Shown: in pieces, positions 3,201-63,561 of the stretch
Numbering within the stretch: position 1 is the first letter of the stretch
Layout of the letters: each line of letters begins with the position of its first letter
DNA from: Eledone cirrhosa
Taxonomy: Eukaryota
NCBI GenBank assembly: GCA_964016885.1
Contig: OZ024749.1
Span: 8,804,001-8,868,000 of the forward strand
Direction: 5' to 3'
Length of the DNA: 64,000 nucleotides
Made by a program: the position numbers and the translations under genes
The notes under the pieces: generated by a model
What the model was told of the DNA's origin: nothing
The model's input: only the letters and a program-made list of their open reading frames with translations
Databases searched by the model: none

Positions 3201-3727
3201 AGAATAAAGTAAATAAAATTCAGAGGTAATTGAAATTAAATAAATACATACACACATACATATACGTACAAACACAAGCATACGCGAAAACCTCGCCATA
3301 GGTATACACATACACGCACATATAAATATGTGTGTGTGTGTGCGTGTATACAAATAATTAAATAAACGTATATAAATAAATAAATACCTATATAGCAAGC
3401 GCACACACATAGCTACATGTAAATGCACAAATGTTCGGATACCTACGTCAACCAAAACACGAAGTACACATATACACACACCCTAATACGTACGAACCCG
3501 CATAATCACACAGACGCAAAAAAAACTTAAAAAGCTTAAAAACACACTTGTGAATAGTGAAGTTTTAATTCAACATGTGAAAAATAATTTAAGACTGATG
3601 TATGAGATTGGGAAAAAGTGAGGAGGGGGGGAAGGTAAGGAAGAGGAGGTTCTTAAATTATTTTTCATATGTTGATTTAAAACTTCACTATTTACAAGTG
3701 TTTTTTAAGCTTCATATCATGTATCCC

Positions 3728-3798
3728 TATTTTATCTGATGAGAACGCAGATATCATCCCATGATGATATTTGTTTTTGAAATGCGCATAATAAAATA
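3728..3798 (+). ncRNA. Minimal type I hammerhead ribozyme, family A
   Basis: tattttat-CTGATGA-(long stem II)-GAAA-tgcgca-TA-ataaaata. Stem I is 8 bp and stem III is the palindrome ATGCGCAT. Related copies at about 9740-9808 (-) and 26329-26400 (+, degenerate). Confidence 0.8.
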
Positions 3799-4027
3799 CT
3801 TGGAACTCTTTTAACCATCTTTTGATCTTATATTATTTATACTCCAGTCCTACAAACTGTAGAGCTACTTATCTGATATTTGCATTGCTTTATTGTGCTA
3901 CAATAAAACTCACCTTCTACATTATATATATATACAGACATATATTTATATATATATATATATATATATATATATATATATATATATATATATATATATA
4001 CACACACACACACATATATATATATAT

Positions 4028-4382
4028 AAAGAAAAAAAGATGAAATCGAAAATGTAACTGGAGTCTTATTTTTTTTTTAAATATATATATTTATTTGGTT
4101 CCTTTACCGGTTTCGCAGTTCATCTGCTTTTCAAAAGGTGAGTTGAGATGGAGGGTCTGTGGTTTTTCAGATGTGAGAAAAACCACAGACCCTCCATCTC
4201 AACTCACCTTTTGAAAAGCAGAAGAACTGCGAAACCGGTAAAGGAACCAAATAAATATATATATTTTTTAAAAAAATAAGACTCCAGTTGCATTTTCGAT
4301 TTAATCTCTTTTTCTTTATACTTTCACTCGTGTAGGACACCTCGGTTATTTTTCATTTTGTAAAAAAAACCTCACTTTCTAA
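4028..4382. mobile_element. Family E inverted-arm element with an HHR-like motif in each arm
   Basis: Arms of about 145 bp are reverse complements around about 4172 and are flanked by (TA)n; motifs at 4101-4138 (-) and 4207-4244 (+). Confidence 0.85.
4207..4244 (+). ncRNA. Hammerhead ribozyme variant with U3-A8 core, family E
   Basis: cctt-TTGAAAA-gcag-aagaa-ctgc-GAAA-ccgg-TA-aagg. Stems I and II pair, stem III is the palindrome ACCGGT, and the core has both C3U and G8A. Confidence 0.7.
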
Positions 4383-4425
4383 TATATATATATATATATA
4401 TATATATATATATATATATATATAT

Positions 4426-58940: not shown

Positions 58941-61625
58941 TATATATATATATATATATATTATTCTCTAATCTTATATACATATTTCACTGCAAGGCAT
59001 GCCCTTCATTAGCTATCAACTGGAAAGCCTAATAATTTCAGCAGGGCCTTCTGACTTTATATATGTATCCATTGACACCAGGTCCCAGTTTTATGCCACT
59101 ATCATCAGAGTCTGGATGCCATCGTAATCACTACAAACCTTCAGGAATTATTATGTTCTCCTTACTAAGGGTTTGCCTTATGCCCCGAGCGTTGATCTTA
59201 CATTTAGATATTTTTGCTACACGAAGAAAAAGGGACGCAGTAAAATATAACATTAAACAGAACACCGATTAAAATAGAATTTCCCCATCTTTATTCCACA
59301 TTTTGGGTTATTTCTCTTTGAAAAGCCGTTAAGGCATTTATTCCGGCTCTTTGTGTACCAATAATGTTTTTTTAAACAGGTCCCGTTAATTGATATACAT
59401 CGTGAGACTAGTGAGTCACATAACCATAAGGTTCACCATCTCAACTTCTTCAATCCCCAGTCTCACCATCAGCTAACTATTTTCAGTTTTCACCAGCACC
59501 ATGGTCTCCTTCGACTATGCGACTTCAGGAACAACAAGGTATTATTCAACTTGGTACCATCTTTCCCTTTGGTATCAACAAGCATTTATATTTCCGCTAA
59601 TGCCTTCCCATTTCTTTTCAACTACTACACCCATACACATAAAGACTCGCACAAAATCACGCTCTACATCCACAAACACATCTGCTGTATCAACGACCAT
59701 GCACACCCACATTGGCTGACATATACACCTACCGTATAAAGCATCTGTTATTCTTTACAAGTATGTCCGACATATTCGCCATCCATGTCTGCTACTTTCT
59801 ATTCAGAAATCCTATTGGAAACTCCTGCACCCTTTGAAAAATACATTTCTTTCCTTTGCTTCTCAATTCTCTCCCCTTTGTTGTATGTGTTATTGTTGTT
59901 GCACTTGTTGTTGTTGTTACTGTTGTTATACATGTAGTTGTTATTACTGTTGTACTTTTAGTTGTATTTGTTGTTGTAGTTGTTGTAGTACTTGTTGATG
60001 CATTTATTGTAGTTGTACATGCTGTTGTTGTTGTTGTTGTTGTTGTCGCTGTTGAACTTGTTTATGTATTTTTTGTAGTTGTACATGATTGTTGTTGCTG
60101 TTCTTACTGTTGTTGTTGTTGTTGTTGCTGTTGCTGCTATTGTTGTTCTTGCTGTTACTGTTGTTGTTGTTGTTGCTGTTGTTGTTGCTGTTGTTGTTGT
60201 TGTTGTTTCCTTGCTAAGTCTCCCCAATCCATTCAGTTCTCCAGTTTAGAATATTCTATAATTACAACATCACTGGAACTATGGTTTATGTATAATCTAT
60301 GGCGCCGATAATCCTTTCCTTTCCTTTTGCTTCTCAATTATCTCCCCTTTTAATCTTGAAAACGATCCTATAATCAAAATGTTGAGATTTTTGCTTCTTT
60401 CACGGAAAATATAAATACCATCATCATCATCATCATCATCATCCCACCGATACCACCACCACCACAACCACCCCTACCATCATCACAACCACCACCACCA
60501 CCACCATTATAAACCCACCACCACCACCACCACCACCACCACCATTATCAACCCACCACCACCACTAACACCACTACCACCACCACCATTATCAACCCAC
60601 CACCACCACCACCACCACTACCAACACCACTACCAACACCATCATTAATCGCTTGATGTTGCGTTATTCGATCTCCATCGAATAACGCAACATCAAGCGA
60701 TTAGCGAAATCTAGACCCACCTGATCAACGAAACAATTGTCAGTACTTTAAATAAAGCCCTTATTGTACAGCCAGCCATGTTACTCTTCATTCTTCACTA
60801 TTATTACACCAAGTATAGGAATTAAAACGAAATAGGAATTACCGCGAACTCGCTGCATAACTATGGAAACCTCTTGTTGAGTTAAACAAAGCCGTACGTT
60901 AAAACTATCCACGATGCAGAGTACTCACAAACTCTAACTGGATTATTACCTATAACGATAACTTGTTATCCCATATATATATATATATGTGCGGAAGGGA
61001 GGGTATGTGTGTGGTGTGTGTGTGTGTGGGGGGTATATGTGTGTGGGTGGGGGGTATGTGCGCGGGGTGTTTGTGTGTGGGGGGGGGGCATGTGTGTGTC
61101 TGTGTGTGTGTTTGTTTGTGTGTGTATGTGTGTGTGGGTATGTGTATGTATATGTGTGTGTGTGTGTGTGTGTGTGTATGTGTGTGTGTGTGTGTGTGTG
61201 TGTGTGTGTGTGTGTGTGGAGGGAGAGAGATAGATATTTACACAAAAGTAAGAGAGACATGAACTTAGATCTTTAAAGATCCACACCCGATCTTTATTTA
61301 CTCACCAGCACATACATACCTCTCTCTCCCTATATATATATATATATATATGTGTGTGTGTGCGTGTGTGTGTAAATATATATATATGTATATATATATA
61401 TATGTATGTATATATGTATGTGTGTGTATATATATATATATATATATATATATATATATATACGTGGGAAAGTAAAAAATCGGAGAATATATATATATAT
61501 GTACGTTTATATGTATGTGTGTGTGTATATATATATATATATATATATATCCGGGAGCTTCCAACAGACATGGTCGCATTCTTTAAGGGTATGTCAATAT
61601 TTATTTATAAAACTGATCTATATTA

Positions 61626-61690
61626 TATTTTATCTGATGAAAGCACACCATAATTTAACTTGGTGTCCTTGAAATATGTATAATGAAATA
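61626..61690 (+). ncRNA. Minimal HHR, diverged family B relative
   Basis: tattttat-CTGATGA-aagcacacca...tggtgtcctt-GAAA-tatgta-TA-atgaaata; stem II sequence differs from family B but still pairs. Confidence 0.78.
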
Positions 61691-62174
61691 AATATGGTTT
61701 TATAAATATAGTTTCCATTTGTTAATATATCGTATTTTACTCCAATAATTTGTTGAGTGATTTATAGCAGTTATAAAAATATTTGCTTGTTGTATCCCAA
61801 CAATTTAAATAGAACTTCTACATATATAATATATATATATATATATATATATATGTGTGTGTATGTATATATATATAGAGTAAATCATGTCCAGAGAATT
61901 ATTTGATAATATATATACATGATCTCTACTCCCAATCAGCATAATTAACCACACAAAAAATCAATTAGACCAGGCTATAAGAGTAAAAGGCATCTATGAA
62001 GAAACAGTAAATAAATACGCTATTGTGGAGTTTTTCGCGTGCAACCGCTATAGAATATTTACCCAACATTTCAACAGCACGTGGAAATTAATTAAATATA
62101 CGGTCAACCATACATAATCAGGTATAAAATTAATGTTAGAAATGCTTATATGCATACCAGGATTAAATCACTAA

Positions 62175-62253
62175 ATCCCGACCCATGGGTTTCGCTCACT
62201 TTTGAGGTACGTTATTAAGGATAAATCTCGAGTTTTAGAGCTCTTCAGGGGAC
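62175..62253 (-). ncRNA. Canonical type I hammerhead ribozyme with GUC site
   Basis: gtccc-CTGAAGA-gctc-(40 nt)-gagc-GAAA-cccatggg-TC-gggat; palindromic stem III ACCCATGGGT. Lies in element 61877-62306, which has short inverted ends. Confidence 0.85.
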
Positions 62254-63561
62254 AAACTCGCTAAGACAGATTATTTTCCGAAGTTCTCTGGACATGATTT
62301 ACTCTCTCTCTCTCTCTCTATATATATATATATATATATGTGTGTATGTGTGTATATATATATATATATATATATATATATATATATGTATATATATATG
62401 TATATATATATGCGTATATATATATGCGTATATATATATATGTATGTATATATATATGCGTATATATATATATGTGTGTGTGTGTGTGTGTGTGTGTGTG
62501 TGTGTGTGTGTGTGTGTGTGTGTGTAAATAGATATATATGTATGTGTGTGTGTGCATATATATATATAGAGAGATTGACATACATACATATATATTTACA
62601 TATAATTATATATATATGTATATGCGCGCGTGTGTGTTTGTGTTTGTGTGTTTGTGTTTGTGTATGTGTGTCTGCGTGTGTGTGTGTATGTGTGTGTATG
62701 TGTGTCTGCGTGTGTGTGTATGTGTGTGTCTGCGTGTTTACACATAGTATCATAAAATATTTATTCTGTCGTCAATGAAAGTGTTTCGCAACAGCGCAAT
62801 AATTGTCACTAAGGACTTACCACCCGGCACATGTTCTCTATGAGATTTGCTTTACAATCTTCAGAAACAACACCACCACATACCACCATCACCACCACCG
62901 CCATCACCACTGCCATCACCACCACTATCACCACCGCCACAATCACCACCGCCGCAATCATCACCACCACCACCATCACCACCACCACCACCACAATCAC
63001 CACCACCACCACCACAATCACCACCACCGCCATCACCACCACCACCGTTATCACCACCACAATCACCACCACAACAACAACCACCACCTCCACAACAACA
63101 ACAACAATCACCACCACAACAACCAGCTCTCCTATCGTTTATCAGGCGCCAATAAAAATATTTCAAACACATCATTTAAAACTTAACAATCACACTTTCA
63201 CTTCGCTGTTTTTTTTTATTTTGTTTTTCTTTTGTTCTTTTTTTTTTTTTTTCCTTTTCCTGTTTTCTTCTCATAGTTAACATATTCCTCTAATTGCTTC
63301 TTTCGCGGTTTTTTGTTTTTTTGTTTTTTTTTCTTCTCTTCTATCTTTCTATTTTTTTTTAATTTATTTCTTCTAAGTTTGGTTTTTGATGGTGGAAGAT
63401 GAGATGGTTCGCTATAATGAGATGGCTAATTTGTTAACGTCTGTGGACTATCTACAACATTACCTTCCATGTAAGATTCGGGTTCAAATCGAAACATATA
63501 TACTTCCTCTCCCGCACCCTCCACTACTCGGAATATTGCCCTATTAGTTAATTAATTACCT

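What the first reader, a model, noticed from the sequence alone, without database searches (positions are those of the whole stretch)
3525..62306. Shared insertion rule: divergent twin arms, RNA 3' ends outward, ends fused to (TA)n at TA or AT microhomologies
Seen: in families A, B, E, the 15940-16446 element and both arrays, the HHR-sense strand of the left arm points left and that of the right arm points right. The two outer ends stop at different unit positions that overlap the microsatellite (469 unit: ...gatAAAAAC and ...gactTA; 310 unit: its own atatat and ...ccaAT). The central joints have little or no homology. Inference: both ends of a break in (TA)n prime reverse transcription on the same or sister RNA at any UA, and the two cDNAs are then joined. 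Established: Penelope-like elements often leave inverted, 5'-truncated pseudo-LTRs. Diverged arms in older copies argue against sequencing fold-backs.
Basis: partly seen in the sequence, partly recalled or inferred. Interest (0 to 1): 0.82.

Follow-up and report, generated by a model that had tools for sequence, protein, structure and literature searches.

The report
Twin-primed Penelope-type ribozyme repeats in (TA)n
Many short ribozyme-carrying repeats in this animal DNA sit back-to-back inside TA microsatellites, mostly with one short and one longer end, a pattern largely known from Penelope-like retrotransposons and likely made when both ends of a cut in the microsatellite prime copying of the element's RNA at two preferred sites.

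Summary
The pattern is real, with exceptions.

Orientation: 18 of 18 two-armed hammerhead elements are divergent. Termini: 29 of their 36 outer ends abut (TA)4+ (32 by a relaxed rule; background 1.6-1.9%). Microhomology: 21 of 25 testable ends share 2 nt or more of TA/AT with the tract (null 22%). Flanks are not mirrored and central joints differ between copies.

Priming 'at any UA' is not supported. Each family reuses two sites 32-100 nt apart (36 of 40 ends; null mean 17), and 14 of 16 insertions in multi-copy families pair a near with a far end. Several pairs of arms do not overlap, which excludes fold-back for them. Four elements, including 15940-16446, have equal ends.

Inverted 5'-truncated copies, a one-sided 'tail', (TA)n bias and two RT start sites are published for Penelope-like elements; two-sided priming is known for L1. 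What I did not find in print: this signature on tandem retrozyme arrays, the near/far coupling as a counted rule, and microhomology at the start sites.

No raw reads, empty alleles or partner RT could be examined.

The parts
3532..3922 (.). Family A twin: left arm 3532-3594 (sense -, odd end, not at TA), 56-nt spacer, right arm 3651-3922 (sense +, HHR core 3736, far end at TA)
4030..4381 (.). Family E twin, near/far ends, both at TA; U3-A8 HHR cores 4134 (-) and 4211 (+)
8976..9141 (-). Family B single arm, HHR 9076, near end; both ends in TA
9539..9675 (.). Family C twin (no HHR found), near/far, arms do not overlap; far arm starts at the near site
9709..10109 (.). Family A twin, near/far, joint is a perfect hairpin on catatg; HHR 9800 (-)
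10140..11927 (-). 469-nt retrozyme array, left arm, 3.8 units, four HHRs, far end at TA
11927..12453 (+). 469-nt array, right arm, 1.1 units, HHR 12198, near end at TA; 1-nt overlap at the joint
12735..13207 (.). Family B twin with equal (far/far) ends, both at TA; 35-nt filler; HHR 13000 (+)
15045..15398 (.). Family B twin, near/far; HHRs 15156 (-) and 15201 (+)
15942..16444 (.). Single-copy twin with damaged HHRs, equal ends; right end at TA, left end not (a ~105-nt tail to the next TA is possible, unverified)
16819..17082 (+). Family B single arm, damaged HHR 16887, far end; both ends in TA
17568..17694 (.). Family G twin, near/far, arms do not overlap; CAGAAGA-core HHR 17628 (-)
17729..17979 (.). 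Family B twin, far/near, arms do not overlap, small snap-back at the joint; HHR 17876 (+)
18021..19170 (.). Family E twin, near/far, long arms; HHR 19003 (+)
26205..26429 (.). Family A twin, far/near, arms do not overlap, 2-nt joint overlap; damaged HHR 26337 (+)
26824..27014 (.). Family C twin, far/near
32318..32410 (.). Family G twin, near/far, arms do not overlap, 5-nt joint overlap
33555..33811 (.). Two family G arms facing each other across a 32-nt TA tract (the only convergent pair; read as two insertions)
39294..39461 (.). Family C twin, far/near
40585..40671 (.). Family F twin, equal ends by homology; right end not at TA (a ~60-nt tail is possible, unverified)
41050..41209 (.). Family C twin, 11-nt near arm and 144-nt far arm
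41523..41641 (-). 310-nt retrozyme array, left arm (0.4 unit), near end on the unit's own atatatat
41640..44699 (+). 310-nt array, right arm, 9.9 units, ten HHRs, far end at TA; 2-nt joint overlap
44725..44967 (+). Family F single arm, HHR-like core 44797, both ends in TA; shares a tract with the 310 array
49639..49960 (.). Relative (~70%) of the 310 unit: long left arm (-, far end) and 25-nt right arm, both at TA
54209..54446 (.). Family C twin, long near arm and short far arm
55824..56440 (.). Circularly permuted twin K: left arm ends at the far site, right arm reads through the far site and ends at the near site; bare CTGATGA..GAAA core at 56200
58349..58936 (.). Old family E twin (arms about 83% alike), near/far
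61878..62302 (.). Twin with a 404-nt left arm (HHR 62248 on -) and a 21-nt right arm with the same end; right end meets (TC)n before TA
2072..2995 (.). Three single arms outside the finding's range: 2072-2210 (310 relative, +), 2591-2641 (F, -), 2791-2995 (G, -, HHR 2946); all 3' ends at TA

Best explanation
These are short non-coding hammerhead repeats set back-to-back in (TA)n, likely non-autonomous Penelope-like (retrozyme/pLTR) insertions made when both 3' ends of a cut in the microsatellite prime reverse transcription at two family-specific internal sites of the RNA. Shown: divergent arms, TA termini, two recurrent end sites per family, 2-8 nt TA/AT microhomology, copy-specific joints, arms that run through the hammerhead cut site. 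Inferred: (1) a PLE RT/GIY-YIG protein encoded elsewhere nicks both strands of the self-complementary (TA)n; (2) one 3' end primes at the far site and the other at the near site, with UA pairing choosing the exact base; (3) both cDNAs run toward the RNA 5' end, on an uncleaved, multimeric or circular RNA for the arrays; (4) their 3' ends are joined through 0-6 nt of homology or short filler. The near-far interval is the published PLE 'tail'.
For: Orientation 18 of 18 divergent; 29-32 of 36 ends at TA against 1.6-1.9%. End clustering 36 of 40 against 16.9. Near/far pairing in 14 of 16 insertions of multi-copy families, p 0.002; 9 of 11 without family C, p 0.033 (A3.5 left out as odd). Far ends lie 115-170 nt 3' of the predicted cut in six families; in the lizard PLE the RT start is 111-118 nt into the ORF and the cut 26 nt in (PMC11167929). 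That protein cuts and extends both strands, starts at two internal sites that define the tail, prefers AT-rich DNA, uses uncleaved RNA and is predicted to be a dimer. None of 36 arms of A, B, E, G, F ends within 10 nt of the cut (I clipped some 5' ends). Far arms lying wholly 3' of the near site in A26, B17.7, G17.6, G32 and C9.5 are the L1 twin-priming geometry (PMC2837659). Ten neighbour pairs share one TA tract, as expected for serial insertion into existing tracts. Inverted 5'-truncated copy, one-sided tail and (TA)n bias are PLE features (PMC8557442, PMC3846280); paired minimal HHRs on opposite strands and the U3-A8 core are in PMC4209133.
Against: No PLE protein was found among the 14 frames scanned, only LINE-type domains, so the partner is not shown. 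Four of 18 twins have equal ends and four outer ends lack TA even by the relaxed rule. In 11 of the 18 the arms overlap, which needs two RNAs, a multimer or strand displacement. Partner arms are each other's closest match in B (97.5%) but not in A or E. In vitro the lizard enzyme starts at sites not homologous to the cut DNA, unlike the microhomology here. Tails here are mostly 65-100 nt against the published 30-40. Family C has no hammerhead. Ends were curated by hand in one 64-kb window; no reads or empty alleles were seen.
Confidence: 0.7

Rival explanations
1. One priming event followed by fold-back: a single cDNA snaps back, copies itself and then switches to the other (TA)n end.
For: The 9709-10109 joint is a perfect hairpin on catatg; 17729-17979 has a small snap-back; 11 of 18 twins overlap; partner arms in B are closest to each other.
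Against: In five twins (A26, B17.7, G17.6, G32, C9.5) neither arm contains the other. The left arm of 9709-10109 is closer to another copy (94.4%) than to its partner (91.6%).
Confidence: 0.1
2. The TA runs are written by the reverse transcriptase: it re-copies a UA in the template, telomerase-like, before running into the element, so tracts are products as well as targets.
For: Microhomology at 21 of 25 ends; single arms have TA on both sides; PLE RTs share an ancestor with telomerase; 11.7% of the window is (TA)4+ in 421 tracts.
Against: Ten neighbour pairs share a tract; two LINE fragments without hammerheads also abut TA tracts; (TA)n is described as a PLE target preference.
Confidence: 0.07
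3. Endonuclease-independent capture: spontaneous breaks at fragile (TA)n are patched with two cDNAs by a LINE or PLE RT.
For: Same geometry as the best explanation; LINE RT fragments are in the window; microhomology-guided priming.
Against: A non-HHR dispersed repeat in the same window shows 0 of 10 3' ends at TA. Two fixed sites per family point to specific RNA recognition.
Confidence: 0.07
4. TA-targeting DNA-transposon MITEs with terminal inverted repeats that happen to carry hammerhead-like motifs.
For: Four twins have equal, TIR-like ends; TA targets are typical of Tc1/mariner MITEs (recalled).
Against: 19 of 23 twins have unequal ends, joints differ in every copy, two carry tandem arrays in one arm, and the orientation follows the ribozyme strand.
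Confidence: 0.04
5. Sequencing or assembly fold-back artefacts.
For: The arms of both arrays are 100% identical; no read-level support was obtained.
Against: Flanks are not mirrored in 17 of 17; arms are unequal or disjoint; older arms are 83-98% alike; ends recur at fixed family sites.
Confidence: 0.02

Closest known systems
EN+ Penelope-like elements with hammerheads in their pLTRs (Penelope/Poseidon, Neptune, Nematis, Hydra; PMC8557442, PMC3846280, PMC4209133)
   Same: Inverted 5'-truncated copy at the 5' end, tail on one end only, minimal type I HHR with palindromic loop III, U3-A8 variant, paired HHRs on opposite strands, microsatellite bias that hides target duplications.
   Different: No ORF; whole insertions are 90-600 nt or arrays; tails mostly 65-100 nt rather than 30-40; no TSD can be read; the clade of the partner is unknown.
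Metazoan non-LTR retrozymes (PMC7229834; bioRxiv 10.64898/2026.07.22.740005)
   Same: AT-rich 310- and 469-nt head-to-tail units with one type I HHR each, no coding capacity, monomers and multimers, proposed PLE origin.
   Different: An inverted second arm, two fixed end sites and (TA)n flanks were not in what I read: 'inverted' and 'microsatellite' have 0 hits in PMC7229834 and 1 each in the preprint. Circular RNA and cleavage were not tested here.
Anolis Poseidon (PAc) in vitro mechanism (PMC11167929)
   Same: Two internal RT start sites downstream of the HHR, both strands extended, uncleaved template, AT-rich target.
   Different: PAc starts at sites not homologous to the target and shows no strand difference in start site; here ends show TA/AT microhomology and pair near with far.
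L1 twin priming and dual priming (PMC2837659)
   Same: Both DNA ends prime; RNA 3' ends point outward; internal joint with little homology; disjoint arms fit twin priming, overlapping arms fit dual priming.
   Different: L1 starts at a poly(A) tail with a variable internal second site and leaves TSDs; here both sites are internal and fixed.
Naiad PLEs (PMC8557442; Octopus families listed with (TA)n preference)
   Same: (TA)n target, inverted arm, one-sided tail.
   Different: Naiads lack canonical HHRs; these repeats carry them. The host of the window was not determined.

Membership tests
Penelope-like element (autonomous) | ORF with telomerase-like RT and GIY-YIG endonuclease | tested here: not met
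   14 frames chosen from 169 scanned with Pfam: only LINE-type RVT_1 and APE hits, outside these repeats.
PLE-type insertion (non-autonomous) | Inverted 5'-truncated copy joined at the 5' end | tested here: met
   18 of 18 divergent.
PLE-type insertion (non-autonomous) | Tail extension on one end only / two RT start sites | tested here: met
   36 of 40 ends at two sites per family; unequal ends in 14 of 18 plus 5 of 5 in C; tails longer than published.
PLE-type insertion (non-autonomous) | Minimal type I HHR in the repeat | tested here: met
   28 folds against 0.3 in shuffles; not found in family C; Rfam at gathering score found none.
PLE-type insertion (non-autonomous) | Homology to the pLTR of an autonomous PLE | not testable with these tools
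   No genome held; three short motifs absent from the supplement of PMC8557442.
PLE-type insertion (non-autonomous) | Target-site duplication | tested here: inconclusive
   Both flanks are (TA)n, so a duplication cannot be read; no empty allele seen.
Non-LTR retrozyme | Tandem units of a few hundred nt, each with a type I HHR, non-coding | tested here: met
   469 x 3.8 and 310 x 9.9 with an HHR in each unit.
Non-LTR retrozyme | Self-cleavage and expression as circular RNA | not testable with these tools
   No RNA data examined.
MITE (TIR DNA transposon) | Fixed, equal terminal inverted repeats and a constant internal structure | tested here: not met
   Unequal ends in 19 of 23 twins; joints differ per copy.
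L1 twin-primed insertion | One arm starts at a poly(A) tail; the inverted arm lies 5' of it without overlap | tested here: not met
   No poly(A); both sites internal; five twins have the disjoint geometry, most overlap.

The most novel reading that the evidence does not exclude
Two-sided priming is the normal integration route of these retrozymes, carried out by one asymmetric Penelope RT dimer: one subunit starts at the near site and the other at the far site, each by UA pairing with a (TA)n end. One step would then explain the PLE tail, the inverted pLTR and the microsatellite bias, and tie tandem retrozyme arrays mechanistically to PLE machinery.
Probability: 0.3. Interest if true: 0.72.

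Novelty: new variant of a known kind. Interest (0 to 1): 0.5.

Why it matters
How PLEs form tandem/inverted repeats and why they prefer microsatellites is named as unresolved in PMC8557442, and how animal retrozymes are mobilised is left open in the 2026 preprint. Short, dense, non-coding copies like these (about 14.5 kb of the 64 kb) record both priming sites and the joint of each event. The near/far coupling gives a countable prediction for a genome-wide survey and for the existing in vitro PLE assay. The individual features are already published for PLEs, which limits the surprise.

Tried and rejected
No whole genome is held, so no genome-wide table could be made.

Rfam at gathering score: 0 matches; hammerheads come from my own descriptor.

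Run search: three runs of one sample hold 0.44-0.49 of the words and may be the source; no RNA holder listed. No reads or contigs were laid, so neither raw-read support nor empty alleles were seen.

Pattern scans for related copies: 0 hits in metagenome, viral and prokaryote contigs. Earlier scan notes: nothing.

A stem-loop just 5' of the far site looked recurrent by eye (A, B, 469), but mean z was -0.85 (10 sites) against -0.70 at near sites and -0.29 background: inconclusive.

A first clustering test with 13-nt windows was weak in five of seven families (p 0.06-0.26). I then used the tighter pooled test, which drops the reference copies and leaves out the 310, 469, K, 15942 and 61878 elements.

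61878-62302 first looked convergent; its short arm is a copy of the long arm's 3' end, so it is divergent with equal ends.

Left out of counts because sense or extent is unverified: 26519-26560, 31849-32288, 38811-39235.

'Any UA' priming, MITE and artefact readings were rejected as set out under the rivals.

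
Full report
SETTING. The window is AT-rich DNA, animal-like by its repeats, with 421 (TA)4+ tracts covering 11.7%. The host was not determined and no genome is held, so all counts come from this window. Family letters are mine.

HAMMERHEADS AND SENSE. A type I descriptor finds 28 folds against 0.3 in shuffles: families A, B, E (U3-A8 core), G (CAGAAGA core), and the 469 and 310 arrays. 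A relaxed scan adds 61878-62302 and two damaged copies (shuffles gave 1-3 hits at that threshold). F and the 15942 element have damaged but folding cores, K a bare core. Family C has none. Rfam found nothing at gathering score.

ORIENTATION AND TERMINI. All 18 directly joined arm pairs with an assignable sense are divergent. One convergent pair faces across a TA tract. 29 of 36 outer ends abut (TA)4+, 32 by a relaxed rule, against 1.6-1.9% of background positions. A control dispersed repeat has 0 of 10 3' ends at TA. Where another copy or unit reads through the site, 21 of 25 ends share 2 nt or more with the tract (null 22%); one search shows that some misses were script misplacements. Joints overlap by 0-6 nt or carry 1-56 nt of filler and differ in every copy. 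Flanks are not mirrored (17 of 17), and older arms are 83-98% alike, which argues against fold-back artefacts, though no reads were seen.

TWO SITES, NOT ANY UA. Mapped on one real copy per family, 3' ends fall at a near and a far site: A 188-189 / 281-283, B 128-145 / 229-231, E 404-410 / 474-475, G 110-111 / 205-208, C 64-67 / 144-146, 310 unit 132 / 164. Pooled, 36 of 40 ends are at the far site or one other 9-nt window (null mean 16.9, max 26). This tighter test was chosen after a looser one was weak. In multi-copy families 14 of 16 twins pair near with far (p 0.002; 9 of 11 without C, p 0.033). In the arrays and in K the unit continues past the far site, so that site is internal to the RNA. 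Exceptions: four twins have equal ends, including 15942-16444, whose left end is not at TA, and the left arm of 3532-3922 ends at neither site.

WHAT THE GEOMETRY SAYS. In five twins the far arm lies wholly 3' of the near site (A26, B17.7, G17.6, G32, C9.5), so neither arm can be a fold-back of the other, and one RNA would suffice. In 11 of the 18 the arms overlap, which needs a second RNA, a multimer or displacement. Partner arms are closest to each other in B but not in A or E, so 'same or sister RNA' stays open. Arms cross the predicted cut site and none of 36 ends within 10 nt of it, so the template was likely uncleaved or re-ligated. Ten neighbour pairs share a tract, which suits serial insertion into existing (TA)n.

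MECHANISM (inferred, 0.7). A PLE RT/GIY-YIG protein acting in trans nicks both strands of (TA)n; each 3' end pairs with a UA at one of two preferred internal sites and primes; the two cDNAs are joined at their 3' ends. No PLE ORF was found among the 14 of 169 frames scanned.

WHAT IS KNOWN. PMC8557442 (passages, sections 10 and 15, supplement search) and PMC3846280 (parts 1-3 of 5) describe the inverted 5'-truncated copy, the 30-40 bp tail at one end and the (TA)n bias. PMC11167929 (parts 1-2 of 4; its supplementary figures gave almost no text) ties the tail to two RT start sites and shows both strands extended. PMC4209133 (parts 1-2 of 4) reports paired minimal HHRs on opposite strands and the U3-A8 core. 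PMC7229834 (passages) and bioRxiv 10.64898/2026.07.22.740005 (parts 1-3 of 5; supplements not seen) define non-LTR retrozymes. PMC2837659 (passages) gives twin and dual priming. Passages of 10.1101/2024.12.14.628481, PMC13282606 and PMC8969392 were also seen.

WHAT I DID NOT FIND IN PRINT. In nine searches I saw no account of inverted arms and tails on retrozyme arrays, of near/far coupling as a rule, or of twin priming applied to PLEs (one search listed three papers that are not about PLEs; listing only). Arkhipova 2006, Evgen'ev and Arkhipova 2005 and Repbase reports were not read and may hold it.

VERDICT. A real and well-supported pattern, mostly the known Penelope insertion signature, seen on non-coding hammerhead repeats and retrozyme arrays. 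New variant of a known kind; interest 0.5.

Noticed in passing
window 15429-15506 and 50821-51060: Palindromes centred on a (TA)n tract whose arms have no other copy in the window; the second has long near-identical arms. Possibly template switching at (TA)n or an assembly error.
   Followed up: partly
window 2946, 17628 (G); 14746-15008 (F); 4134, 4211, 19003 (E); 12198 (469): Hammerhead core variants: CAGAAGA with U17 in G and one F copy, U3-A8 in E, a GUU cleavage triplet in the 469 unit. Activity untested.
   Followed up: partly
window 9865/9870 and 26268 (A); 9141, 16818, 17810 (B); 9597, 26962, 39398-39405, 41074 (C); 2995, 33555 (G): 5' ends also recur within families, about 65-125 nt before the cut site, which may mark a transcription start or an RT stop.
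   Followed up: partly
window 4427-7900, 51481-53210, 55126-55187: A frameshifted APE-RT LINE and a second LINE RT fragment start directly at TA tracts; a short 3' piece of the first lies between TA tracts.
   Followed up: partly
window 18240-18290 and 18850-18890: The upstream part of family E holds CCAAT-like and TTTCGCGC motifs, recalled as promoter motifs; untested.
   Followed up: no
window 32945-33485: Nested palindrome without a hammerhead and not ending in TA, with a CTAG hairpin; Helitron- or MITE-like by recall.
   Followed up: no
window 38811-39235 and 31849-32288: Further palindromes that begin at TA and reach the next TA 30-45 nt past the other arm; the first has the ~190-nt dispersed repeat inserted at its centre with a direct repeat on both sides.
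   Followed up: partly
window 19380-20680: GC-rich broken reading frames on the - strand that resemble a restriction-endonuclease-type LINE end by recall; Pfam gave no hit.
   Followed up: partly
window 372-719, 13550, 14131, 20682-20886, 31139, 38913, 47602, 56502: A ~190-nt dispersed repeat (10 hits, 90-95% alike), SINE-like by recall; used as the control for TA termini.
   Followed up: partly
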